This document shows, piece by piece, positions 23,189-43,828 of a stretch of DNA of 64,000 nt (positions within the stretch are counted from its first letter, which is position 1; each line of letters begins with the position of its first letter). A model generated the notes under the pieces. It saw only the letters and a list, made by a program, of their open reading frames with translations. It had not been told where the DNA came from and ran no database searches. The DNA comes from the human T2T-CHM13v2.0 reference genome, Homo sapiens, in the NCBI RefSeq assembly GCF_009914755.1, contig NC_060934.1. The stretch is one strand, 5' to 3'. Made by a program: the position numbers and the translations under genes.

Positions 23189-25181
23189 TTAGTTCATACT
23201 GTTCAGATAAACATACCAAGTGGTACATGTGGAGTTGGTGGTTGAGGTCTTACAGGCCACAATGGGTAGAGGAGCTGGTTGAGGTCCCAGAGGAGTTGGT
23301 TCAGATAGCAGAGGCCAGGCAAGTGGAGGAGGTGGCAGATGTACTAGAAGAGACCCTGGTGGAGGAGGTGGCTGAAGTCCCAGGGACCACAAGTGGAGAT
23401 TATTGAAGTAGCTGAGGAGATTCATGTGAAGGTGGTAGTTGAGGGGCCAGAGGCCACCCAGGTAGAAGGGGTGGCTGAGGATCCAGAGATTACTAAGTGG
23501 AGATGTAGTCGGAGGTCCCAGAGGCCTCACAGAACAAAAAGGTGAATGATGTCCCAGAGGAAAGGCAGCTATAAAAGATGGATGAGGTCCCGGAGGACAG
23601 AAACATGCAGAAGATGGATAAGGTCCGGGAGGACAAGGAGCTGCAGGAGGTGGATGAGGTCCCAGAGGACCAACAGCTGCAGGAGGTGGATGAGATCCCA
23701 GAGGACCTACTGGTGCAGGAGATGGATGAGGTCCGAGAGGACCACCAGCTGCAGGAGGTGGATGAGGTCCCAGAAGACCTACAGTTGCAGAAGGTGGATA
23801 AGGCCCCAGAGGACCAACAGCTTCAGGAGGTGGATGAGGTCCCAGAAGACCTACAGTTGCAGGAGGTGGATGAGGTCCCAGAGAACCTACCACTGCAGGA
23901 AGTGGATGAGGTCCCAGAGGACCAACAGATGCAGGAGGTGGATGAGGTCCCAGAGGACTGACAGCTGCAGGTAGATGAGGTCCGGGAGGACTGACAGCTA
24001 CAGGAGGTGGATGAGGTCCTGGAGAACTGACAGCTGCAGGTGGATGATGTCCGGGAGGACTGACAGCTGCAGGAGGTGGATGAGGTCCCAGAGGACTGAC
24101 AGCTGCAGGTCGATGAGGTCCCGGAGGACTGACAGCTGCAGGAGGTGGATGAGGTCCTGGAGGACTGACAGCTGCAGGTAGATGAGGTCCGGGAGGACTG
24201 CCAGCTGCAGGAGGTGGATGAGGTCCCAGAGGACTGACAGCTGCAGGTGGATGAGGTCCCGGAGGACTGACAGCTGCAGGAGGTGGATGAGGTCCCAGAG
24301 GACTGACAGCTGCAGGTGGATGAGGTCCCGGAGGACTGACAGCTGTAGGAGGTGGATGAGGTCCCGGAGGACTGACAGCTGCAGGTAGATGAGGTCCGGG
24401 AGGACTGCCAGTTGCAGGAGGTGGATGAGGTCCCGGAGGACTGACAGCTGCAGGTAGATGAGGTCCGGGAGGACTGATAGCTACAGGAGGTGGATGAGGT
24501 CCTGGAGGTCTGACAGCTGCAGGTGGATGATGTCCGGGAGGACTGACAGCTGCAGGAGGTGGATGAGGTCCTGGAGGACTGACAGCTGCAGGAGGTGGAT
24601 GAGGTCCTGGAGGACTGACAGCGGCAGGTAGATGAGGTCCGGGAGAACTGCCAGCTGCAGGAGGTGGATGAGGTCCCAGAGGACTGACAGCTGCAGGTGG
24701 ATGAGGTCTCAGAGGACTGACAGCTGCAGGAGGTGGATGAGGTCCCGGAGGACTGACAGCTGCAGGTAGATGAGATCCGGGAGGACTGCCAGTTGCAGGA
24801 GGTGGATGAGGTCCCAGAGGACTGACAGCTGCAGGTTGATGAGGTCTGAGAGGACTGACAGCTGCAGGTGGATGAGGTCTGAGAGGACTGACAGCTGCAG
24901 GAGCTGGATGAGGCCCTGGAGAACAATCGAGTGGAGGAGGTGGTTAAGTTTTCAGGGGACTCTCCAGTGCAAGAGGTGCTTGAGTTCCCAGAGGACACTC
25001 CAGTGGAGGAGTTTGTTGAGGTCCCAGAAAACCTTCAGATGGAGGGAGTGTTTGAGTTCCCAGACAACACCCGGTAGAGGAGGCGGCTGGCAGCCCATCA
25101 ATGGTCCTGAAGGGCCAGCCATGAGATCGGGCAAGTAGGGCCATTCTGAGAAAGGATGAGCTTCCCTGCAGCCACATTGAC
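23189..25181 (-). pseudogene. Terminal proline-rich exon (MIA3 VNMAPKG / NPIP VRMAA exon homolog) containing the VNTR
   Basis: cttgtag|GTCAATGTGGCT: VNVAAG/HPFSEWPYLPDLMAGPSGPLMGCQPPPL vs MIA3 [35 protein letters not shown] and NPIP [35 protein letters not shown]. Confidence 0.85.
23230..25070. repeat. Minisatellite/VNTR, 36- and 33-bp units (GAGGTGGATGAGGTCCCAGAGGACTGACAGCTGCAG)
   Basis: Directly visible tandem array; homogeneous core about 23580-24900 with diverged flanks. Confidence 0.97.
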
Positions 25182-27132
25182 CTACAAGTCAGGAGGAGAA
25201 AATGTTTTGAAATATATGAATATGATGGACAAAAACACCAAAACCAACACAAGCTGCACCTTATGCCTCGGGTGATAGTCCCTTGCACCTTTCCCTCCTC
25301 CAGGTTTCAAAATGGCAGCATGAATGCCATAAAGTCTCCCTTCAACTGAGTCCTGCCAACAGCAGGGGAGTGAAGAAAAGTCGTGGGGACAAACTGCTAT
25401 CCCCACACGCCACTCTGTCTGCAAATGTACGCAGGCTGGGGGCCTGTCCCTGGGAAGACAGAGTCATAACCCAGTAATAAAGAAGCATGTTTCTGACACA
25501 GGGGTGTCTATGTCTATCCTAATTCCTCCCTCACCATCATCACCGGAGCATGTTCCTTGCATCAGATAAACAGAGAGAAAGAGAAGCATGAAAAGCCCAT
25601 TGTCCACACATGAGTCACAGCTACTCTTAAGAGAATGGCCTCCAGGCTTTTCATGTGCTGTCTCTGATTCTCAGAAATCTACAAGGTCAGTGTGACCACC
25701 CTGCTCCAAATCTAAGAAAATAGAGGCTCCAGAGGAAGGAGAAATTTCACCTAGCATCACACAGCTTGCAAGAAGCAGAGTGGAAGTCGATTCCAGCTCT
25801 GCCTGCAAGACCCTCTCGTCCCCCTTCTGCTTCCCTTCTTGACAAACGGTCTTCTCTACTTTGGAAGCGCCATCCATGGGCACAAAGAGCTCTGGGGAGA
25901 TGGGGATTCCTGAAGAGCTGCAGGGGAACTGGGAGAGGGTTTTCTGACGGAATAATCTTACATAGAGATATCAGTTTGGCATGGTTATCACATTTCTTTA
26001 ACTTCTAGGTAATACCAAATTTTAAGTGCACTATGACATAAAGAATAATTTTGTCCATGGAAAAATGAGGTGGGAATTCTCAACAACAGAAGTTTTAAAA
26101 ATATGTTTGATTTCAAGTGTACAAGTCCCATCGTGTGTGATCAGAGGATTCAGCAGCTGTCGAAGACACAGAGGCCACACGAGAACCAGCTTAATTGAGC
26201 ATCATTTAAGGCCTTCATTGAGAATTGTCCCTGTAGGTAATGAGTGACGTTCACTCTCCACTACCTCACAGCCAGGGCACATTTTCTATTAAAATATGGA
26301 ACCTCTGACACTTAGAATATTAGATCAAGGGCAACACTGGGTGAGGGTGGGGGCGTTTTTGCTCAACACAGTTAACAACAGAGATGGGACTGTGATGAAT
26401 TATGGAATTGACTTTGCCAAAGAACATTCAAAATTGCACAAAGCACATATTAATGTTGGATCAATGAGTTTTCACTTCTGGGATTACGGCGGATATTCTG
26501 AAGGTTAATCACTTACCTTATAGCAGAAAAGAAAATCACAGCAAAAAAAAAAAGGAAACCCCACATATTTTGGAAAGGGGATCCCACACCATCTTGAGTA
26601 AAAGGGATCAGTCAGGGTCTACTGGGCCATAAGACCTACCTCAGTGGAGTTCAATGGCATCCTCTCATGTTATTTCTGGAAACAGAACAGTGACAGCCCT
26701 GCAGCCCTTGGCCCTTAAGCATTTATGGCTTCTGGAGGTGCCACCAAAGATGACCAGCTGGAAATGGAGAAGCCTGAAAGCTCATGGGGAAGATTTTGCT
26801 TTCAAAAAAGTCCAGTTAGAAAAGGCACCACAGAACCCAGAGAGCAGAGGACAGGCCAGGAGAGGGCGCTGTAGGAAAAGACAAAACTGTCCTGAACTAG
26901 GCAGAGGGAAAATGACTCCAGCATTTACCTTTGTCTTCTCTGTTTTCTGGCTATGTCTTCTGATTCTTTAAGAAAAGAAGAAATATTGATCCATGAAGAC
27001 ATAGCCAGAAAATTTCTGCTCTCATCAGCACTTATGGCTCCCATTCTAAAATGTTACTAGTGTTACTTTTCTCAAATAATAATAAAAAAAATAAAGCCTT
27101 CCCACTGACTCAAGGTTGGAAGGGGAGCTGAC

Positions 27133-27267
27133 CCATTTGCCTTCTAGGCTCATCCCCTCAGTTAAAAGTAACCAAGACATCAGGGTGGAATGATGTCCAC
27201 AGTCAGTGGAGGGGCCTGTGCTCCGCTATTCACAGGGGACCAGCCAAGAGTCATTCAGCTGTGGCAC
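27133..27267 (-). pseudogene. Exon: MIA3 PRD exon homolog (frameshifted)
   Basis: NDS/GWSPVNSGAQAPPLTVD/VTFN*GDEPRRQM(G) vs [21 protein letters not shown]...ATLNRRDMPRSEF(G); donor gtcagc. Confidence 0.82.
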
Positions 27268-27442
27268 GTGAGAAAAACGGTCCTGCCACCCAGCGGGATA
27301 ACTGTTCTCTTTAGTAAGTGCTTGGAACTGTTTCCAGGAAACATAACAATAACCCAACCCAAGCCCTCACCCCAGAAAGGAGAAGCAGGGGTGTGGATTG
27401 TGGAGCAGAAGTTAAGCGGGTGCCTTCCCAGAGAGCTCCTAC

Positions 27443-27537
27443 CTCTCCAGAAAGGGTTCTCTAGCCCTAGCTGTCCCTGGGCTGCCTCCTGACTCATGTG
27501 TCTCTCCAGCACTCCCTGCTTTTCCATCATTTCCTGT
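27443..27537 (-). pseudogene. Exon: MIA3 LLELTQK...NPPRR exon homolog (95 nt, phase 2-1)
   Basis: QEMMEKQGVLERHMSQEAAQGQLGLENPFWR(G) vs [33 protein letters not shown](G); ttcaag|...|gtagga. Confidence 0.75.
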
Positions 27538-27658
27538 CTTGAAGACAGTGAAAGAGTTGACTTGTAGAAGAATTAAAACACTGTTTTCTTTACTAGACAG
27601 TCAAAGCTTCATCTTAAAACAAAAACATCCTTAAAATTTGTCCATCACAATCACCTAC

Positions 27659-27720
27659 CTGTGCTGCTTGCAGGCAGCCTTCCTCTCTGCCATCTCCCTC
27701 TGCAAGGCTTGAGCACAGAG
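27659..27720 (-). pseudogene. Exon: MIA3 LKARAAER exon homolog (62 nt, phase 0-2)
   Basis: LCAQALQREMAERKAACKQH vs [22 protein letters not shown]; cccacag|...|gtaggt. Confidence 0.82.
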
Positions 27721-27788
27721 CTGTGGGGAGAAAAATACATCCATGTCCCGACTTGGCCGAAAAGCAAGGGAAAAATGAACAAACTTAC

Positions 27789-27826
27789 CCAGTTGTTGAG
27801 GCCTTTCTTGCAGCAGAAGGGGCGAT
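27789..27826 (-). pseudogene. Micro-exon: NPIP exon 7 / MIA3 IATHEKKAHENW homolog (38 nt, +2 frameshift)
   Basis: tttttcag|ATCGCCCCTTCTGCTGCAAGAAAGGCCTCAACAACTGG|gtaagt; reads IAPSA/KKGLNNW. Confidence 0.88.
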
Positions 27827-27936
27827 CTGAAAAAGCCAACACATGAGAAAATGTATGTTGACAGATTCTAGGGGCAGTGGCATCATCTTGATGAGCGTTT
27901 AAGGATCCTGCAACTGCAGGAAGGAAGGCTCCTTAC

Positions 27937-27997
27937 CTCTCATCTGTAGGAGTCCTCTACCCACTGCTGCAGCTCTTGTCTGTCTTGAATCGTTTTT
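27937..27997 (-). pseudogene. Exon: NPIP exon 6 / MIA3 RRIEEM exon homolog (61 nt, premature TGA)
   Basis: KTIQDRQELQQWVEDSYR*E vs NPIP [20 protein letters not shown]; TGA at 27942-27940; catag|...|gtaagg. Confidence 0.88.
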
Positions 27998-28687
27998 CTA
28001 TGGTTTAGAATCACTTTCATCAGACACAGCATCATCTTTAGTATGATTTTAAATAATCTGCCATGTTCCTGTTGTCCTCACAATTGTACCCTTACACAAT
28101 CTATCTATACATAGAAAATGTATTTCACATGGCTATAAAAGTACAGTATGATCAAAACTGTTGCTGTAATGCTTCCTCCTCTTTTACTTAATGCCTGCTG
28201 GGTTCTGAGTTGACAATTTCCTTACCCATTTTCAGTATGTCCCTAATTCATGCTTCATTGGGCATCTTTTATCATAAAGCTCTATTCTCCTGGAATTAAT
28301 ATCCTTGCCATATTTCACAGGGCAGAAACAGCTGAGCTTATAAATAGGCACAGTCCTTTTGAAGGATGGGTTGATCCTACAACAACACACTTTCCTAAGG
28401 ATGATGACAACTCGCATCACCCCTAGAACGGCTGGTATGAACCGAGTTTCCACACAGTCTGGCTGGCATTGCAGTCAGGAGATGTTTGGCTACTTCACAT
28501 GTTTTGAACACTAGTAAATCTTAAGGTACTTGTGTTCTCTGGTGTGAATTGTCTCTCTCTCTAGGTATCGCTTCTGACCATTTGTTTCCATTTCTGTGTT
28601 AACTGGGTCTAAACATTGTACAAAGATTTAAAACAAAACACTCCACCAGCGCTTCCCCAAGAGGCTGGTGTCGGTTTCCGAACCCAC

Positions 28688-28789
28688 TTGCAGATGGGTA
28701 TTTTTTCTAGAGCCAATTTCATGGTTTCTTCCACCTCTGACAGCCGCCTCCCCTTTTCTTCTCGTTCACGTTCTTTCATTCTCAGCTTC
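28688..28789 (-). pseudogene. Exon: NPIP exon 5 / MIA3 KLSQEEYER exon homolog (102 nt, open)
   Basis: KLRMKEREREEKGRRLSEVEETMKLALEKIPIC vs NPIP [33 protein letters not shown] and MIA3 [33 protein letters not shown] (12/33); ctcag|...|gtgggt. Confidence 0.9.
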
Positions 28790-29150
28790 CTGAGTCGAGA
28801 AGGGAGAGAAATGCATGCACGTGATCCACTGGCCTGTGTGGGATTCCTTGCGGCATCTGAAGGCCGTGATTCAAAGGTCCCCTGACAACCTTCCCATAAA
28901 TGAACCAACTGATCCTCACAACTGGGGGGAGAATTAACACCTTCCATGGGACAAAGAAAAAGCACATTCTGGCCTGCTGGCAAGTCACCTGTCGTTTCCA
29001 GCTCATCTTCATCGCTCTGTATTCCTACTCTTTAGTAAATATGAACTATTAAAAGCTTCTATGAGATGCGCTATGTGTGCTTCTGGGGTCAGTCTTTTGC
29101 CTGACATAGCGAAAGCTCATTTTAGTTCAGTGTAGAAAACCAGACCTCAC

Positions 29151-29370
29151 CAGCTCATCACAACTAAACCCATAAGGACGGAGCAGAGGATCACTCCTCG
29201 TCTGACTCCTCCCACAGGGAAACCTGATTCTCCATCAGAGGCTGATGCCAGAACCCAGACAATCAGCCTCAGAGAGATCCTTCCAGGACATGCTGTCATT
29301 AGCCCTGCGGTTCACTACTGCACATGTCCATGATTCAGGACTGGAACTCTTCTCATCGACTTTAAAGATC
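29151..29370 (-). ncRNA. Candidate 220-nt non-coding exon resembling subtelomeric-duplicon lncRNA exons
   Basis: ccttttctctcaaccag|GATCTTTAAAGTCGATG...GAGCTG|gtgagg. Similarity to LINC01002/FAM157-type transcripts is from memory. Confidence 0.5.
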
Positions 29371-29660
29371 CTGGTTGAGAGAAAAGGCCAATCTGAGTGC
29401 TGGGTGCATCTACTGAATTGGAAATGATCCAATGGCTCTTTAGTCAGGGTGTTATGTCCTGAAAATAGGTGACAACTGCAAACCATCCTCTGGTGTCCAG
29501 AGACTTTAACAAGGTTTGTTTCACACAGACTGAGGGCAGAAAAAAGGAAATGGCCTAAAAAGGTGGGTTTGCTGTGTTGCCTCACACTACTTGATTCATG
29601 GTTCTGATTCTAAAAATCTCACTTGATACTTGATTTCATATGAAAGACGTGTAAAATGCC

Positions 29661-30900
29661 TGGGTAGAGGCGGCGGCGGCGGCGGCGGCGGCGGGCTCGG
29701 AGGCAGCGGTTGGGCTCGCGGCGAGCGGACGGGGTCGAGTCAGTGCCGTTTGCGCCAGTTGGAATCGAAGCCTCTTAAAATGGCAGATGATTTGGACTTC
29801 GAGACAGGAGATGCAGGGGCCTCAGCCACCTTCCCAATGCAGTGCTCAGCATTACGTAAGAATGGCTTTGTGGTGCTCAAAGGCTGGCCATGTAAGATCG
29901 TGGAGATGTCTGCTTCGAAGACTGGCAAGCACGGCCACGCCAAGGTCCATCTGGTTGGTATTGACATCTTTACTGGGAAGAAATATGAAGATATCTGCCC
30001 GTCAACTCATAATATGGATGTCCCCAACATCAAAAGGAATGACTTCCAGCTGATTGGCATCCAGGATGGGTACCTATCACTGCTCCAGGACAGCGGGGAG
30101 GTACCAGAGGACCTTCGTCTCCCTGAGGGAGACCTTGGCAAGGAGATTGAGCAGAAGTACGACTGTGGAGAAGAGATCCTGATCACGGTGCTGTCTGCCA
30201 TGACAGAGGAGGCAGCTGTTGCAATCAAGGCCATGGCAAAATAACTGGCTCCCAAGGTGGCAGTGGTGGCAGCAGTGATCCTCCGAACCTGCAGAGGCCC
30301 CCTCCCCCAGCCTGGCCTGGCTCTGGCCTGGTCCTAGGTTGGACTCCTCCTACACAATTTATTTGACGTTTTATTTTGGTTTTCCCCACCCCCTCAATCT
30401 GTCAGGGAGCCCCTGCCCTTCACCTAGCTCCCTTGGCCAGGAGCGAGCGAAGCCATGGCCTTGGTGAAGCTGCCCTCCTCTTCTCCCCTCACACTACAGC
30501 CCTGGTGGGGGAGAAGGGGGTGGGTGCTGCTTGTGGTTTAGTCTTTTTTTTTTTTTTAAATTCAATCTGGAATCAGAAAGCGGTGGATTCTGGCAAATGG
30601 TCCTTGTGCCCTCCCCACTCATCCTTGGTCTGGTCCCCTGTTGCCCATAGCCCTTTACCCTGAGCACCACCCAACAGACTGGGGACCAGCCCCCTCGCCT
30701 GCCTGTGTCTCTCCCCAAACCCCTTTAGATGGGGAGGGAAGAAGAGGAGAGGGGAGGGGACCTGCCCCCTCCTCAGGCATCTGGGAAGGGCCTGCCCCCA
30801 TGGGCTTTACCCTTCCCTGCGGGCTCTCTCCCCGACACATTTGTTAAAATCAAACCTGAATAAAACTACAAGTTTAATATGAAAAAAAAAAAAAAAGAAA
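29661..30900 (+). mobile_element. EIF5A processed-mRNA retrocopy (5'UTR, CDS, 3'UTR, polyA)
   Basis: Perfect 19-bp TSD GAAAGACGTGTAAAATGCC at 29642-29660 and 30901-30919; AATAAA at 30859-30864; poly(A) about 30882-30900; no introns. Confidence 0.97.
29780..30244 (+). CDS. EIF5AL1: eIF5A-1-like protein, intact intronless retrogene (154 aa)
   Basis: ATG at 29780 gives [15 protein letters not shown]...AIKAMAK*. Hypusine motif [10 protein letters not shown] (Lys50) is intact. W36, A45 and P109 differ from recalled EIF5A (R/T/R), as recalled for EIF5AL1. Confidence 0.93.
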
Positions 30901-32102
30901 GAAAGACGTGTAAAATGCCAAGAACTCTAGGAAACAGGGACAAAAACACTTCAAAGAGAAAGTTCATGCACTTGTTTCTGACCACCCAGGGCACCCTTCA
31001 GCACACGCTGTCTGGAGTGGCCTGAAGCAAGGAGTGTCTTGTGAGGTGCAGAGGATGCAATGGGAGCAGGGTCCTGTCCCCACCCTAAAGGAGTTCACAG
31101 TTTAACGCAAATGAGAAGCCAGTGAGGACATCACTACTCCTGCTGTGAACTTGGGAACTAGAAACACAAAACCTGAGTCTGGAGGGAAGCTAAGGAAGCA
31201 TTCTGCTCTGGAGTAGACATGAGTGCGTGTGAAGCTTCTGATCTCCCATGAGAGCAATGGGGACATGGGGCAGAATCTAAAACCCATGACTGAAAGCACC
31301 AAATTGCTAAAATGGCAATAAAGAGACATGAGGCCAAGATGGAGAAGAAGGAACCCAGGACGAGGGTCAGCCTCACATTTGGGGCTCATTTCCCTCAGTT
31401 TCCTCACTGAATTTCAGAAGGGACTAACTGAGATGCAAAGAAGCAGAGCAGCTTTTGCACCATGTGGAGGACTAGATGGAAAACAAGTAGACTGAGGGTC
31501 TGCTAGTGAAGGTGACCCCTACTGAAGTCCACTGGCTTTGGTTGGGACCCAGAAGAGTCACACGCCAGGAATAGAGGTGGACAGGAAACACCCTGACTTT
31601 TGTAGGGACTGAACCTCACTGATAACCTCAATTGCGGATGGTATGGAGGGTGTCTAGGTGTGCTAGGACCCCTGCCCATTCCCCAGAAATAGACTCCCAT
31701 CTTTTCTACAGCAAGATAACGTGCTAGTAGGCCTCAATTCATTGCTAAATATTTTTAACGAGTGTCTTACATTTAGCCAAAAAGACTAGTCATGTGGCAG
31801 GAAAAATACAATGTCATATGACCAAAAGCTAAAAGACTGTGAAAATGAATCCAGAGGTGACCCAAGCATTGAATTTAACAATGCCAGTACCTGGACCTCC
31901 GCTTGCCCCTAAAACATTACAATCAAGAATGTAGGAAGGGAAAGGAAACACGAAGATTAATCAAGCAGGAAGGACAAGCTCAGTTTTGCACCCACTGAAT
32001 TTGCCACAAATATTGTGGAAAATATTCTCGGGGACATTGCAGTTGTCTACTTTGGTTGGCACATGGTTCATACAACAGTGTTTGTGTCAGTGAACATCTT
32101 AC

Positions 32103-32241
32103 TCTTCCTCGGCAGTCTTTCTTTGCCCAGAGATTTCGCAATGACTGTTGACCTTCATCATCACCTTTTGGACTTTGGCTTGCACTTTAGCTTCTGTAGA
32201 TCTCCATGATGTAAAGAAGTATTTTAGGTCCATTTTAATTC
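32103..32241 (-). pseudogene. Exon: NPIP exon 4 / MIA3 DQVKKL exon homolog (139 nt, phase 1-2, open)
   Basis: (G)IKMDLKYFFTSWRSTEAKVQAKVQKVMMKVNSHCEISGQRKTAEE vs NPIP [49 protein letters not shown]; ttgcag|...|gtaaga. Confidence 0.9.
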
Positions 32242-32405
32242 CTGCAAAGGATAAAATCCTTCTATTTGTGTGCATATAAGTGGACCTGAGCCCTTGGTTA
32301 GGGTGTAGAGAGGAGAAGGGGAGAAACCTGAGGGCCAGAAGCTGTTCTTTCCCTTAAAAGGGCAAACTCATTTCCACACTATGGGGACTCTGACAGATAG
32401 CATAC

Positions 32406-32504
32406 CTTCCTGTCTATGGCTATTGGACCTGCAGGCTTTCCCCTGTAAATCCGTGTTCTGTCATTGACATTTTGTGACTGTAAGACAGACTTGAGATAAG
32501 ACAT
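32406..32504 (-). pseudogene. Exon: NPIP exon 3 homolog (99 nt, 1-nt deletion)
   Basis: MSYLKSVLQSQNVND/TDLQGKACRSNSHRQE(G) vs NPIP [34 protein letters not shown]; ttctag|...|gtatgc. Confidence 0.88.
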
Positions 32505-32649
32505 CTAGAAAACAATAATTGAACAATGATGTGAATATATTTCACACAACTGAACTGTACATTTCAACAAGGTTAAGATGGTAATTATCACGTTATACAT
32601 TTTTTACCGCAGGTTAAAATGTTTCACAGGTTGAAAGGAAAGCAACTAC

Positions 32650-32794
32650 CTTCAGTTCTCTGAGTTCAAGAATTTGTAACATTTCACCCCCTGCTCCTTC
32701 CTGATCTTCTGTGGAGCATCTTTTTTCCATCCATGCTCTACTCAGAGCCCACTTTCCCTTCCCTGACACCAGCTTCACTGAGGCTGGTTGGAAC
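32650..32794 (-). pseudogene. Exon: MIA3 VQIALNEAK exon homolog (homology 32794-32691), extended to a donor at 32649
   Basis: VPTSLSEAGVREGKVGSE* then frameshift to DAPQKIRKEQ, vs [20 protein letters not shown]...NARLKKKKEQ; tgttag acceptor. Confidence 0.75.
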
Positions 32795-32943
32795 CTAACA
32801 CAAAACATTCTCAGTAATGACTGAATTCCCACAAAGAATTCCATATAGACTGCATATGAGTTGAATCTTCTAAGACATGAAATATTTGTTCTCTTCTTGG
32901 CTAATATGCAATGCAAATCCTGTTGCAGATGTACGTCATATAC

Positions 32944-33015
32944 CTCTGAAATTCCTGATGTATTCAATGAAATAACATCTTTAAAGTTCTGTGTAGAATG
33001 TTTTTTTTCTGATTT
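32944..33015 (-). pseudogene. Exon: MIA3 coiled-coil exon homolog (72 nt)
   Basis: KSEKKHSTQNFKDVISLNTSGISE vs MIA3 [24 protein letters not shown] (13/24); ag|...|gtatat. Confidence 0.88.
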
Positions 33016-33938
33016 CTTCACATACGATAGAAAAAAAAACCCAAAAAAACATGTACTAGGATTTCAATAGAAGCAATGGGTGATCTAAAAAGATGAAAGA
33101 GCAACCGCATGCGCCCTACAGCTACCGCTAGATTTTATGGGGAAAGCAGCTGGCCCAGTTTGCAGCTAGGAGAAATGTCAAACACATGAAGAAATGAGAA
33201 GCAAAGAAAAACCATGAGGCATGAACATTTCATGGCAATCACGATGTCCTGGTTTGTGAGATAATGGGATAGAGGAGTAGAAAACAAGGAGAAAGATGAG
33301 AAGGTACAAAGTGGTTCAAGTCAAACAGCTCAACTGAACTTTTCTTAATGGAATATTTAAAAAGTGGTACATTAAAAAACTTCCCCCAGTTCACATCAAA
33401 AATTCTCTCTTCAGGACTAAGTTGGGTAGAGACTGTTCAATGTGCCTAGATATCTTCAGAACTTATATATTTTCTGTTTTCTACGTATGTTGAAGGGCAG
33501 TGCCAAATGATGTGTAATTATCTAGGTTGTAAAAATAAAACATACTCCCCCTTCCCTTGAGGATAAAAAAGCATTGTGGTATTAGCACTTTTTTCTTGGA
33601 TCATTGTTCAGAAGATGTTTAAGCCCCTAGACACCCAAACTTTTACTGTCATGAACAGCAAGAGAAAACGTAGAGCTCGATTTACTCAATGGACAAAAAT
33701 GCTCAAAAGCCAAATTATGGCACAATTTAGCAGCCACATTCTTAACCAGTACAGACTTTTGACATACCGATCCCTCTCCAGTGGCAACCGAGAATGTGTA
33801 CTTTGAATGATGCCATTTGAAATGACCACTCATTACTCTGCCCAGACACACTTTTCATTGATTCTTCGGAGGGCAGTTCCAAGAGATTCTCTGGGGCTTT
33901 CTCTGCATCATGAGACACAGTGCAGTTCTGCCCTTGAC

Positions 33939-34026
33939 CTTCCTGCAGTTTGTCGCCTCTTCCTCATGATCTCAGAGGAACTTTGTCTCAGGCCAGCTGT
34001 TTGTTCCTTGGGCTCTTTCATTTCCC
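33939..34026 (-). pseudogene. Candidate degenerate exon (MIA3 IKESKK...DEAIKYK homolog)
   Basis: tttttag|GGGAAATG...GGAAG|gt. Reads MKEPKEQ..., then EEATNCRK after a frameshift. Position is colinear but similarity is weak. Confidence 0.4.
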
Positions 34027-34639
34027 CTAAAAATCATTTGCTGTCCTGCCTTCATCTCCATCTCCCGTTTCCCTGAGAAGAGGGTGCTCATTAAGCATCA
34101 GTCATCTGGCCCTTCTTGCAGTCTCATTTTTTGGCTGGCTCCCATGTTTATGCATGTTAATAAGGTTCTATGTTTTCCTTCTCCTGTTAAGCTGTCTGTT
34201 GTTAGTACATTGCTGCAGTGAACTTTTAGAGAGGAGAGTGGAAGCTTTCCTTCCACCCATACAATAGAACTATAAAGCAGAAAAGTTTAGAAAGAATTTC
34301 TTATTTAAGTGCTGAAACTTTATACTTCAGTTTTTGATAAAGAGCAGAGGGCTTAAAAAAAACGTATTTTTGACCAAAAGCTCTGTTGACATTCTATTAA
34401 ACAAACACAAACCTATTTAATTTTTTAATTAAATAGGTTGAATTAAAAATTTAAAAAAATTTTAAAAATCTGCCATAATTTAAATGGCAGATTTTTCATA
34501 ATTCTTATGCTAATAAATCATTTCCTGATTTTTTAAATAAAACCCAATATTCATAATGAAGTCCAGAACCACAAATTGTTTTAAATAATTTCTTATTTGT
34601 GATTACAAGTCCACCTCTAGGGAAAGTTAGTGTACTCAC

Positions 34640-34771
34640 ACCAAGGCTAGTTTTGCAGAAGAAAATGGCAAGTTTGTAAATTCCCAGGGACACAACAATA
34701 ATGATAAGCATCCAAGGAATTCCAAAAAAGTCAGGCCCGGGATGAAAATGCCCAGGCAGAAAATTGACGAT
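34640..34771 (-). pseudogene. Exon: TANGO1 TM-hairpin exon / NPIP exon 2 homolog (132 nt)
   Basis: IVNFLPGHFHPGPDFFGIPWMLIIIVVSLGIYKLAIFFCKTSLG vs MIA3 [44 protein letters not shown] (about 20/44, ungapped). Donor gtgagt intact; acceptor reads CAT. Confidence 0.9.
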
Positions 34772-35455
34772 ATGGAATACTACTAGTTGACATAATGAGA
34801 AGGCTCAATGACATTTACAATATTTCAGTTACAAAGAATCATCCTTAGAAACCCTTAACCTCCTCCAAGAAGTAACCACACCCCTCAGATATCCCCGGGC
34901 AATTCCACTGCTTCAGGAAAGATTGGAAATTTCCAGTCTCATGTTTCTTGCATGGATGGTAGTGTATTTAGGCGTGCAAATGTGGGCTGTCTTTTTTCTT
35001 GGTCTGAAGCAGGCATGTCCAGTCTTTTGGCTTCCCTGGGCTATATTAGAAGGAGAATTGTCTTGTGCCACACATAAAATACACTAACAATAACTGATGA
35101 GAAAAAAAAAATCACAAAAAAATCTCAGAATGTTTGAAGAAAGTTTAGAAATTTGTGATGGGCTGCATTCAGAAAAGCTGTCCTGGGTTGAATACACTCT
35201 GCCACCCATGGGTTGGACAAACTAGTTATAAAGTAATTATCTTTAAAGTCATTTACTTATTTTTTAGATTGAAATATAATATTGAGTGTATTTGTCATGT
35301 ATCACATGATAAAGGAATCTCTCTGGATCCCACTTCTCTCTTGAATTACATGAATCTTTGCAATTTAAAGAATGTAAGTAAAAAAATACAATTAAGAGAT
35401 GACTTCATTCAGAAATAAGTATCAAATTTTAGTGCTTAAAAATAACCAAGGTGGA

Positions 35456-42010: not shown

Positions 42011-43828
42011 TCATCATCACCCCGCCCTAGTGGGGAGACTGAAGTGGCCAGGGATTTGCCGAAGGTGCCAGTTGGTTCCGAGTTCACTGCTGATTACATC
42101 TGACCAAGCTCCTTTTCTCAAGTTCACCTTGTTTAATCTTTCCAGTGACAGTTTTCCGCAGCTCCGGGACAAACTCCATCTGGTTAAGTATAAGGGAAAT
42201 CCACAGTGACTTACCAATTCCCTACCCTCCTCCTCTGCCCCTCCACAGTCTCCCACACAGGCTGACACCATATGGTCGCCTTAATGGAATCCACCAAGTG
42301 TGTCAGGTTCTCCCCTTGACCCTTTGAAGGTGGATGTAGCCGTGTGATGTGACTCAGGAGCTGTGAGTGGAAGTGAAGCGTGTCACTTCAAGACAGAAGA
42401 GTTGGGAGCCCCTGAGACTGGCCACCCTCTCCTCCATCTCTTAGAGAAGCTGACAGGTGATGAGGGGATGTGAAGCACAAGGCCCAGCAGAGCCATGGTG
42501 GACGTGCCGCATGAGCAGGATAAGAACCTTCAGTGTTGTAAATTTCCATTGTCTGGGGCTGTCCACTGAACCTACAGTGATATCTGGCCCATCGTAGCAG
42601 GCATGCACCATCTATTTCATGCTCTGTGAAGCAGGCTAGCCTACCCTCAGAACATGAACTTGTCAGACACACATAGGTTTCAGTTTCAGCCCTGCCTCTT
42701 AATGACTGCAACCTCGGGCATTTGACTTTGAGTCTCCGAGCCTCAGTTTTGTTTTTGTAAAATGGTTTGCTATGCTATCTCAGGTGGAAGAGAGGATTTA
42801 ATGAAATAAAAATCCATGTAAAGCATTGAGCCTAGGGGCTGGCACACACAGTGAGTACTCAATCAAGGTTAGCCATGTAGCTTCATAATGTGTATTGACT
42901 GTAAATACTCAGACACTGCAGCAAAGTATTACAAAGAAGGAAGTGTTAACTTTTTGGCATATGTATCTCTTTGCACTTTATTTTCAAAGGGGTAGGATAA
43001 TACCACGTATACTTTTTCATAGTACGCTTTTTTCTCTTAATATGTGTTGAGATATATGTTAAATATATAAAAAACTGAATCATTATTTTAAATTGCAGGG
43101 TTATATTCAATTTTATGAAAACCTTATTTCTCTATTGTTTGACTTTTTGTAGGTTGCACAAGGCATTGAATTAAAATAAACATATCAGAATGCATTGCAT
43201 TTATAAAGATAAATATCATTCTATTAATTTTTGTTTGTTATATGTATGTATATATATTTTGAGTTGCAAGACAGAACATATTTCTTCCTATGAATCATGT
43301 TAGAAAAAGTTTGGAAGCTGCTGATTTGGATTTTTTTTTTAATTTTTACAGGATTATAAATAACCTTTTTAAAAATATCCTTGGGCACTTGACTGATTTT
43401 TGTCTTTAGGTTAACATGCCAGCAATGATTCCTTTTGGGTTTCTGACACAAGATAGCAATTTCCATCCAAATAAATCAACTATGCCATCCCATCCCTAAA
43501 CCAAATTCCTTCTTCTGCAGAAGAAAAAGCCAGTACTGTGACTGCCTAAGCTTTCCCCTGCACAGCCACCCTATGAGACATGGGGCAGGAGCACTGGGAG
43601 CTATTCAGGAGCACCAGACCCCTTCCATCTGCCCTCACTCACCTTCCTTGGGGACTTGCATGAGACTGTCACTGACTTTACATGCTTCTGCAGCTCCTTG
43701 GTCAGCTGGTCCTTGTCACGGGACAGAAACTGTGGGGTCAGGACAATAAACACCTTCACGACCTGCAGAACGAGGGCAGAGGCTTATGGTGAGTGTCAAT
43801 GTATTACATATCTTAAAAAGTCAATATT

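What the first reader, a model, noticed from the sequence alone, without database searches (positions are those of the whole stretch)
34640..34771. Transmembrane exon is still open and closer to TANGO1 than NPIP exon 2 is, but its acceptor is dead
Seen: 44 uninterrupted codons, perfect gtgagt donor, acceptor CAT instead of CAG. It aligns ungapped to the recalled TANGO1 TM segment (about 20/44) and to NPIP VINTLADH...DFGGSPWLLII...YKFAI. This single exon bridges the two families and favours MIA3 over MIA2 (PGPDF vs PDSNL).
Basis: partly seen in the sequence, partly recalled or inferred. Interest (0 to 1): 0.7.

Follow-up and report, generated by a model that had tools for sequence, protein, structure and literature searches.

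The report
Dead TANGO1-derived exon of NPIP pseudogene
This 132-base stretch is the leftover membrane-anchor exon of an old, decayed chromosome-10 relative of the NPIP (morpheus) genes, and it shows that this family began as a partial copy of the secretory-pathway gene MIA3/TANGO1.

Summary
Window 34771..34640 reads as 44 open codons inside a 99-codon open frame. GTGAGT follows it, and CAT sits where paralogs have the acceptor CAG.

It scores 69.7 bits against Pfam NPIP (cut-off 27.5). It matches the TANGO1/MIA3 transmembrane exon 20/44 without gaps, with the same length and homologous flanking intron.

About 11 kb of the window (34968 to ~23800, minus) is colinear with MIA3 from that exon to its proline-rich 3' end. 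It is also colinear with NPIPA at 79-85% identity. MIA2 is a much poorer match (11/44, no intron homology).

The locus is an unannotated, ancient NPIP paralog. It has an ACSM1-like exon plus MIA3-derived exons, is duplicated on chr10, and is broken in human by the lost acceptor, a 1-nt deletion in the next exon, stops further on, and an EIF5AL1 retrocopy in an intron.

The open frame is what neutral decay predicts.

The "bridge" is real but not unique. Macaque NPIP is closer to TANGO1 (22/41), and Pfam's NPIP model already hits TANGO1. This is an ordinary pseudogene relic of moderate evolutionary interest.

The parts
34640..34771 (-). Pseudo-exon: 44 open codons homologous to the TANGO1/MIA3 transmembrane exon and to NPIP 'exon 2' (Pfam NPIP positions 1-43)
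34772..34774 (-). CAT in place of the ancestral CAG acceptor; shared by both chr10 copies
34634..34639 (-). Conserved GTGAGT splice donor
34780..34784 (-). Two cryptic AG dinucleotides (34784-83, 34781-80). Starting after the first begins the exon with TAG. Starting after the second shifts the frame by 8 nt into a different frame that is also open (47 aa)
   Evidence: read
43643..43762 (-). ACSM1-like exon (40 codons, AG acceptor and GTGAGT donor intact). In gibbon, bonobo, macaque and orangutan protein models it is the exon upstream of the NPIP-like part
32406..32504 (-). Next NPIP-like exon (99 nt). Relative to the gibbon model the frame shifts after ..NVNDR, which I read as a 1-nt deletion
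32103..32241 (-). NPIP-like exon (Pfam NPIP 69-127), open. It lies antisense inside the annotated EIF5AL1 3' UTR
29661..30900 (+). EIF5AL1 retrocopy body, inserted in an intron of the pseudogene. The flanks abut in NPIPA (chr16 15109342/15109360)
   Evidence: plus the supplied annotation
28627..28788 (-). NPIP-like exon (KLRMKEREREEK...). Approximate limits from tblastn. Positionally colinear with the TANGO1 exon KLSQEEYERQEREHRLS...
27660..27822 (-). NPIP-like exon (Pfam NPIP 161-207). Overlaps lncRNA LOC729815 exons 27659-27720 and 27789-27826
   Evidence: plus the supplied annotation
23800..34968 (-). Whole block colinear with MIA3 (chr1 221879053-221897897), from the TM exon to the proline-rich 3' exons

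Best explanation
The 132-nt stretch is a non-functional relic: the transmembrane exon of an ancient NPIP-family paralog on chr10q22.3.

Origin. The family arose from a partial genomic duplication of MIA3/TANGO1, introns included, running from the TM exon to the 3' end. This became joined to an ACSM1-derived upstream exon. The chr10 lineage split from the LCR16a/NPIP lineage before the catarrhine radiation. It evolved more slowly than hominoid NPIP, so its TM exon still looks TANGO1-like.

Decay in the human lineage (shown).
- The ancestral acceptor AG was lost (CAG to CAT).
- The next exon acquired a frameshift, and a later exon acquired stops.
- An EIF5A retrocopy (EIF5AL1) landed in an intron.
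- The whole block was then duplicated in inverted orientation on chr10.

What remains. Only the 3' exons are annotated as transcribed, as lncRNA LOC729815. The exon's open frame is simply not yet hit by a stop.

Shown here: homology, colinearity, splice-site states and lesions. Inferred: timing, lack of splicing, and the order of events.
For: Family membership.
- Pfam NPIP hit at 69.7 bits, E 3.8e-19.
- A genome-wide NPIP-profile scan gave 116 matches: 100 on chr16, 4 on chr18, 6 on chr10 (3 per copy), 1 on chr11, 1 on chr1 (the MIA3 exon, 47.4 bits), 2 on chr7 and 2 on chrX.

Derivation from MIA3.
- Exon-plus-flank alignment shows intron homology to MIA3 and conserved splice sites.
- Of 219 blastn hits between window 48000-20000 (minus) and 40 kb of MIA3, 211 are in Alu-type multi-hit blocks. 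Seven are single-copy, same-strand and strictly colinear (window 34968 to 25204 against chr1 221879093 to 221897716). One is a 25-nt opposite-strand match inside an Alu.
- tblastx adds coding matches in order, for example SEKKHSTQNFKDVISLNTSGISEV against [24 protein letters not shown], plus the proline-rich exons.
- Macaque NPIP aligns to human TANGO1 in two colinear pieces: 22/41 at E 2e-14, and 31/109 without gaps at E 9e-10.

Relation to NPIP and age.
- Colinear with NPIPA at 79-85% identity from 35243 to 25375, interrupted only by 30900-29661, the EIF5AL1 retrocopy.
- Tree: MIA3 is the outgroup (0.5). The branches are chr11 0.052, chr16:20.54 0.076, chr10 0.082 and the NPIP clade 0.17.
- The two chr10 copies are 97.8-98.1% identical over 22 kb and share CAT.

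Primate models.
- The gibbon model P0003 reads ...SPRK|VINFLPEH..., spliced at the ancestral site.
- The bonobo model P0002 reads FH|IVNF, so it has CAY there, not CAG.

Other lesions and the open frame.
- Frameshift in exon 32504-32406, and stops in the exon near 28086-27950.
- Only 9 of 396 possible single-base changes in the exon create a stop. The probability that it stays open and in frame over 0.7-2% divergence is 0.68-0.87.
Against: - All seven exon segments used by the bonobo 292-aa model are open in human, so a patched-together reading frame can still be drawn.
- Cryptic AGs lie 6 and 9 nt upstream of the lost acceptor.
- No RNA data could be consulted, so non-use of the exon is inferred from the annotation alone.
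- The gibbon exon differs from human at 9 of 44 residues. This is more than I would expect for strict orthologs, so P0003 may be a paralog or a conversion product. That weakens the dating of the acceptor loss.
- The tree leaves the order of the chr10, chr11, chr16:20.54 and NPIP branches unresolved.
Confidence: 0.9

Rival explanations
1. The exon is still used. A cryptic acceptor or read-through lets a human transcript encode a small TANGO1-like membrane protein from the chr10 locus.
For: - The frame is open for 99 codons.
- An automatic bonobo model (P0002, 292 aa) includes the exon at 98% identity, and all its exon segments are open in human.
- The hydrophobic core is strong, with a Kyte-Doolittle 19-residue mean of 2.51.
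- The upstream ACSM1-like exon keeps both of its splice sites.
Against: - The ancestral AG is lost.
- Of the two cryptic AGs, one gives a TAG at the exon start and the other shifts the frame by 8 nt.
- The next exon is frameshifted relative to gibbon.
- The bonobo model has to read through both splice sites.
- RefSeq lists no transcript over the exon, only lncRNA LOC729815 starting 6.5 kb downstream and EIF5AL1 on the other strand.
- The open frame is expected under neutrality.
Confidence: 0.04
2. The chr10 copy is not an independent old lineage. It is a derived copy of the LCR16a NPIP gene, or heavily gene-converted by it, and only looks TANGO1-like because it escaped the hominoid burst of positive selection.
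For: - The order of the paralog branches is unresolved.
- Human chr10 shares ..YK.. with hominoid NPIP (SYKFAI), where gibbon chr10-type and macaque NPIP have ..ST... This is a possible conversion tract.
Against: - Identity to NPIPA is 79-85% over about 10 kb, far below segmental-duplication levels.
- chr10-type exons (NSHCEISGQRK...) occur in macaque, orangutan, gibbon and bonobo models alongside separate NPIP proteins.
- chr10 lacks the 3-nt deletion present in all three human NPIP copies aligned and in macaque NPIP.
Confidence: 0.05
3. The resemblance to TANGO1 is chance or convergent similarity between hydrophobic segments.
For: The peptide is short and hydrophobic. Identity is only 45%.
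Against: - E 2.2e-5 genome-wide for the exon alone.
- Identical exon length and phase, conserved donor, homologous intron flanks.
- Seven colinear single-copy DNA blocks over 18.6 kb of MIA3.
- A second significant protein segment, E 9e-10.
Confidence: 0.01

Closest known systems
NPIP / morpheus gene family (core duplicon LCR16a, Pfam PF06409)
   Same: - Three exons in the window match the NPIP profile above cut-off: positions 1-53, 69-127 and 161-207.
- About 10 kb is colinear with NPIPA.
- The same ACSM1-like exon sits upstream of the TM exon, as in chimpanzee model P0016.
   Different: - It lies on chr10q22.3, not chr16 or chr18.
- It is only 79-85% identical to NPIPA, so it falls outside the LCR16a segmental-duplication set.
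- It lacks the 3-nt deletion of NPIP exon 2.
- It is broken in human: lost acceptor, frameshift, stops and a retrocopy insertion.
- In the NPIP papers I consulted by term search only (passages of PMC7419210 and bioRxiv 10.1101/2025.02.04.636496), the terms 'chromosome 10' and 'chr10' had 0 occurrences.
MIA3 / TANGO1 transmembrane exon (ER-exit-site cargo receptor)
   Same: - 132-nt exon read in phase 0, with a GTGAGT donor.
- Shared motif ..LP....PGPDF.G.PW.. followed by a hydrophobic stretch.
- Homologous flanking intron, and downstream colinearity to the proline-rich end.
   Different: - Only 20/44 identical.
- No homology found upstream of about 240 bp before the exon, so no SH3 or luminal part.
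- Much of the first coiled-coil region has no detectable counterpart.
- The acceptor is lost.
MIA2 / cTAGE5 (TALI) transmembrane exon
   Same: Same exon length (132 nt) and general layout..LP......Y.G.PW plus a TM stretch.
   Different: - 11/44 identity to the chr10 exon, against 20/44 for MIA3.
- The genome hit has E = 5.
- No non-repeat DNA homology in 10 kb around it.
It is not the parent.

Membership tests
NPIP (Pfam PF06409) | Profile score above the curated gathering cut-off (27.5 bits) | tested here: met
   69.7 bits for the 44-mer and 79.9 bits for the 99-aa frame. Two further exons in the window score 75.3 and 78.5 bits.
NPIP (Pfam PF06409) | Genomic colinearity with an NPIP gene (exons and introns) | tested here: met
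   Window 35243 to 25375 is colinear with chr16 15116718 to 15106000 at 79-85% identity.
NPIP (Pfam PF06409) | Part of the LCR16a segmental duplication (high-identity copy on chr16/18) | tested here: not met
   On chr10 and 79-85% identical. It forms a separate branch in the tree.
NPIP (Pfam PF06409) | Intact, spliceable coding gene | tested here: not met
   Acceptor is CAT. Frameshift in exon 32504-32406. Stops in the exon near 28086-27950.
MIA3/TANGO1-derived exon | Same exon length, phase and splice-site positions as the MIA3 TM exon | tested here: met
   Both are 132 nt and 44 codons. The donor GTGAGT aligns, and the acceptor column aligns as CAG versus CAT.
MIA3/TANGO1-derived exon | Homology extends into flanking introns and to downstream exons in order | tested here: met
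   Seven colinear single-copy blastn blocks and ordered tblastx matches.
MIA3/TANGO1-derived exon | The chr1 partner really is MIA3/TANGO1 | tested here: met
   100% identical to human 'transport and Golgi organization protein 1 homolog isoform X4' (P0097). 182 proteins passed E <= 0.001 among 189 candidates. Of the 120 listed, nearly all that carry a source name are called TANGO1 or MIA3.
MIA3/TANGO1-derived exon | Hydrophobic membrane-spanning segment | tested here: met
   Best 19-residue Kyte-Doolittle mean is 2.51, against 1.84 for TANGO1. This is a hydropathy calculation only; no TM predictor was run.
Full-length TANGO1 gene | Luminal SH3 domain and upstream exons present | tested here: not met
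   No single-copy match between window 48000-35008 and the 19.5 kb of MIA3 upstream of the TM exon.
MIA2/cTAGE5-derived exon | Closer to MIA2 than to MIA3 | tested here: not met
   11/44 against 20/44 identity. 0 non-Alu blastn hits; 40 hits in Alu-masked parts were dropped.

The most novel reading that the evidence does not exclude
The chr10 locus belongs to a set of old relics, together with copies at chr16:20.54-20.555 (next to an 83%-identical ACSM1-type exon), chr11:3.39 Mb, chr7:65.6 Mb and chrX:50.4 Mb.

These would record that the whole NPIP/morpheus family began as a chimera of an ACSM1 exon with a partial TANGO1 copy (TM anchor, second coiled coil, proline-rich tail). That would have happened long before the ape LCR16a burst.

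If so, the NPIP N-terminus is a TANGO1-type ER-membrane anchor. NPIP proteins could then act at ER exit sites or the nuclear envelope as truncated, TANGO1-like competitors. This origin is not spelled out in the NPIP literature I could search.
Probability: 0.3. Interest if true: 0.55.

Novelty: new member of a known kind. Interest (0 to 1): 0.35.

Why it matters
NPIP is one of the fastest-evolving human and ape gene families. Its function and origin are poorly understood.

This slowly decaying chr10 paralog keeps a near-ancestral version of the exon that positive selection has scrambled in hominoid NPIP. That makes the derivation from TANGO1/MIA3 visible at the DNA level, introns included. It also shows that the ACSM1-exon fusion predates the split of the chr10 and LCR16a lineages.

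It suggests a testable idea: the NPIP N-terminus may be an ER-type membrane anchor with part of TANGO1's second coiled coil.

The exon itself has no sign of present function.

Tried and rejected
- PDB sequence search with the 44-mer: 0 matches at E <= 10.
- MIA2 as parent: rejected.
- Retrocopy origin of the locus: rejected, because intron sequence is shared with both MIA3 and NPIPA.
- chr7 and chrX NPIP-profile hits as processed pseudogenes: rejected. Their exons are separated by intron-sized gaps.
- Exon-by-exon tblastn of the other chr10 exons against MIA3 gave no individually significant hit. The best positionally consistent one had E = 17. The macaque NPIP versus TANGO1 BLASTP was needed to show that segment.
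- ACSM1-like exon in the fetched chr16:20.526-20.553, chr11 and NPIPA stretches: not found there. The whole-genome search placed copies further upstream.
- Literature searches: 'NPIP'+'TANGO1' gave 0 papers. 'nuclear pore complex-interacting'+'TANGO1' gave 0. 'LOC729815' gave 0. 'NPIP'+'MIA3' gave 2, of which one is relevant. One search failed on a phrase that was too long and was re-sent shorter.
- The PIPPI microprotein preprint (10.1101/2024.12.08.627409, passages only) concerns another ORF in LCR16a and does not bear on this exon.

Full report
**The observation**

The feature is on the minus strand. Window 34771..34640 translates into 44 codons with no stop (IVNFLPGH...KTSLG). The frame is in fact open for 99 codons, 34804..34505. 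GTGAGT follows the last codon at 34639-34634, and the three bases ahead of the first codon read CAT.

**What family it belongs to**

The 44-mer hits Pfam NPIP (PF06409) at 69.7 bits against a cut-off of 27.5, covering profile positions 1-43. It has no match among solved structures.

A six-frame scan of the window's own genome with the NPIP profile gave 116 matches:
- 100 on chr16 and 4 on chr18, the known NPIP copies.
- 6 on chr10, as three exons in the window: 34610-34771 (profile 1-53), 32090-32272 (69-127) and 27658-27798 (161-207). The same three recur in inverted order at chr10:81.11 Mb.
- 1 on chr11, 2 on chr7 and 2 on chrX.
- 1 on chr1, at 221879297-221879449 (47.4 bits).

A search with the 44-mer itself ranks the hits as follows:

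| Target | Identity | E-value |
|---|---|---|
| two chr10 copies | 100% | 9.7e-24 |
| chr16:20.54 Mb | 73%, one TGA | 1.7e-14 |
| chr11:3.39 Mb | 67% | 8.9e-11 |
| chr1 exon | 48% | 2.2e-5 |
| NPIPA-type exons | 48-52% | about 1e-4 |
| NPIPB-type exons | 43-46% | 0.2-0.6 |
| chr14 exon | 30% | 5 |

**The partner exons**

The chr1 exon is the TANGO1/MIA3 transmembrane exon. Its translation is 100% identical to human [quoted passage not shown]. In that search, 182 proteins passed E <= 0.001 among 189 candidates. Of the 120 listed, nearly all that carry a source name are called TANGO1 or MIA3, from many mammals.

The chr14 exon reads VVAALPEGMRPDSNLYGFPW.... That chr14 is MIA2 rests on my recollection of its map position and on that motif.

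**Exon anatomy across copies**

I aligned eight copies with 100 nt of flank.
- The MIA3, chr10, chr11 and chr16:20.54 exons are about 132 nt. The chr11 copy has one extra base.
- The three NPIP copies have a 3-nt deletion.
- The upstream intron is alignable in all copies, MIA3 included.
- The acceptor column is CAG in 5 of 8, CGG in chr11, and CAT in both chr10 copies.
- The donor is GTGAGT in 7 of 8.

Pairwise figures:

| Pair | Identity | BLOSUM62 | DNA identity |
|---|---|---|---|
| chr10-MIA3 | 20/44, ungapped | 102 | 65.2% |
| NPIPA-MIA3 | 19/43 | 67 | 61.2% |
| NPIPB-MIA3 | 14/39 | 55 | 57.4% |
| chr10-NPIPA | 22/43 | - | - |
| chr10-MIA2 | 11/44 | - | - |

So the exon is closer to TANGO1 than human NPIP exon 2 is. 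The margin is clear in score and DNA identity, but narrow in residue identity against NPIPA.

**The locus is a partial genomic copy of MIA3**

I compared window 48000-20000 (minus strand) with 40 kb of MIA3 and got 219 blastn hits.
- 211 fall in Alu-type blocks that hit many places.
- 7 are single-copy, same-strand and strictly colinear, from window 34968-34627 against chr1 221879093-221879438 down to window 25246-25204 against chr1 221897674-221897716.
- 1 is a 25-nt opposite-strand match inside an Alu.

For tblastx I dropped opposite-strand rows, rows upstream of the exon and rows in four Alu intervals. The remaining hits add ordered coding matches. These include a coiled-coil exon (24 residues, 58% identical) and exons of the proline-rich C-terminus.

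No single-copy match lies upstream of window 35008. Ten kb around the MIA2 exon gave 0 non-Alu blastn hits, with 40 Alu hits dropped.

**It is also a complete old NPIP paralog**

The window is colinear with an NPIPA gene (chr16:15.1 Mb) from 35243 to 25375 at 79-85% identity. The only break is 30900-29661, where the two NPIPA flanks abut. That interval is the body of the EIF5AL1 retrocopy (plus the supplied annotation).

A bonobo UniRef model (P0002, 292 aa) carries the 44-mer at 98% identity. It maps to seven minus-strand segments of the window: 43762-43640, 34789-34550 (the model's residues up to about 100 align down to roughly 34610), 32457-32401, 32242-32102, 28788-27627 region (28788-28627), 27822-27640 and 26397-26332.

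The first segment is an ACSM1-like exon with intact AG and GTGAGT. It is 83% identical to an exon at chr16:20555046, and it also lies upstream of many NPIP copies. A chimpanzee NPIP model (P0016) splices the same kind of exon directly onto VINTLADH.... The ACSM1-exon fusion therefore predates the chr10/NPIP split.

**Lesions in human**

Besides the lost acceptor:
- The exon at 32504-32406 changes frame after ..NVNDR relative to the gibbon model. I read this as a 1-nt deletion.
- The exon near 28086-27950 carries stops when aligned to macaque NPIP.

RefSeq annotates only lncRNA LOC729815 over the 3' exons. EIF5AL1's long 3' UTR runs antisense over two exons. Nothing is annotated over the TM exon.

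**Timing (inferred)**

- The two chr10 copies are 98.1% identical over 4,079 nt and 97.8% over 18,300 nt. Identity then falls to about 93%. Both have CAT, so the loss predates that duplication or was spread by conversion.
- The bonobo model reads FH|IVNF, which means CAY at the site.
- The gibbon model P0003 (named "NPIPA2-like" by its source) reads ...SPRK|VINFLPEH..., spliced exactly at the ancestral site.
- This places the loss after the gibbon split and before the human-Pan split, provided P0003 is the ortholog. It differs at 9 of 44 residues in this exon, which is rather many, so that assumption is not safe.
- chr10-type exons also occur in macaque (P0050) and orangutan (P0074) models that skip the TM exon.
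- In the tree of 8 rows and 353 columns, MIA3 is a long outgroup (0.5). chr11 (0.052), chr16:20.54 (0.076), chr10 (0.082) and the NPIP clade (0.17) radiate from an unresolved node.

**Is the open frame meaningful?**

No. Only 9 of 396 possible single-base changes in the exon make a stop. With 0.7-2% neutral divergence since the acceptor loss, the chance of remaining open and in frame is 0.68-0.87. Even over the whole 0.082 branch it is about 0.2.

Of the four old lineages, two are still open (chr10, NPIP) and two are broken (chr11, chr16:20.54).

**How new is this?**

- The NPIP model of Pfam already scores human TANGO1 above its cut-off (33 bits, residues 39-85). Many TANGO1 entries carry that precomputed domain.
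- A 2017 preprint notes 16-27% similarity of morpheus to MIA3 without further analysis (10.1101/116087, passages only).
- Macaque NPIP aligns to TANGO1 better than the chr10 exon does: 22/41 at E 2e-14, plus a second ungapped 109-residue segment at E 9e-10.
- In term searches of two NPIP evolution papers, 'chromosome 10' and 'chr10' had 0 occurrences; 'MIA3' and 'TANGO1', searched only in the second, also had 0 (PMC7419210 and 10.1101/2025.02.04.636496, passages only). [quoted passage not shown]
- Searches for NPIP+TANGO1, 'nuclear pore complex-interacting'+TANGO1, and LOC729815 found no paper.

**Verdict**

This is a real, correctly described pseudo-exon. The exon itself is a non-functional relic. 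Its value is as a slowly evolved witness of the TANGO1 (plus ACSM1) origin of the NPIP family.

Noticed in passing
window 29661-30900 (+), with annotated EIF5AL1 exon 29663-33570: The EIF5AL1 retrocopy sits inside an intron of the NPIP-like pseudogene. In NPIPA the flanks abut with about 18 nt of overlap, possibly a target-site duplication. Its annotated 3' UTR runs antisense across two NPIP-like exons (32504-32406, 32241-32103).
   Followed up: partly
window 43643-43762 (-); G000 chr16:20555046-20555165, chr22:17724018-17724137: An ACSM1-like 40-codon exon with intact splice sites lies 9 kb upstream of the TM exon. Its best non-chr10 matches (83%) are on chr16:20.555 Mb and chr22. The chr16 one is directly upstream of sequence colinear with window 40371-26982. 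This suggests that the ACSM1 3' end on 16p12 is the family's original landing site.
   Followed up: partly
window 23229-25089 (-), inside the last exon of LOC729815: An internal tandem repeat, seen as many staggered self-similar blastn hits to chr11:3384000-3385046. It aligns by tblastx to the proline-rich C-terminus of TANGO1 (PLGPHPPPASVGPLGPHP... against PIRYGPPPQLCGPFGPRP...). The orangutan model P0074 translates a similar repeat in another frame.
   Followed up: no
G000 chr7:65596499-65599820 (L033) and chrX:50373937-50376594 (L034): Two further degenerate NPIP-like genomic copies. They have intron-sized gaps between exons and several stops. No TM exon was seen in the stretches fetched.
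   Followed up: partly
G000 chr16:20540302-20540433 (+) versus chr16:20546698-20555165 (-): At the chr16:20.54 locus the TM exon (73% identical to chr10, one TGA, donor ATGAGT) lies on the opposite strand from the other NPIP-like pieces. This implies an inversion or two partial copies.
   Followed up: no
window 34610-34639 (-), intron just after the donor: The read-through VSTLTFPRGG adds about 10 bits to the Pfam NPIP score (profile positions 44-53). NPIP copies show the same effect, with genomic hits reaching profile 52-54. In spliced NPIP proteins, however, those positions come from the next exon (VSFLKT...). This is either chance resemblance or read-through models in the Pfam seed. It is unexplained.
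   Followed up: no
G000 chr16:15115496-15115621 and 15119889-15120014: The NPIPA locus examined has two copies of the TM exon and its flank 4.4 kb apart, a local tandem duplication.
   Followed up: no
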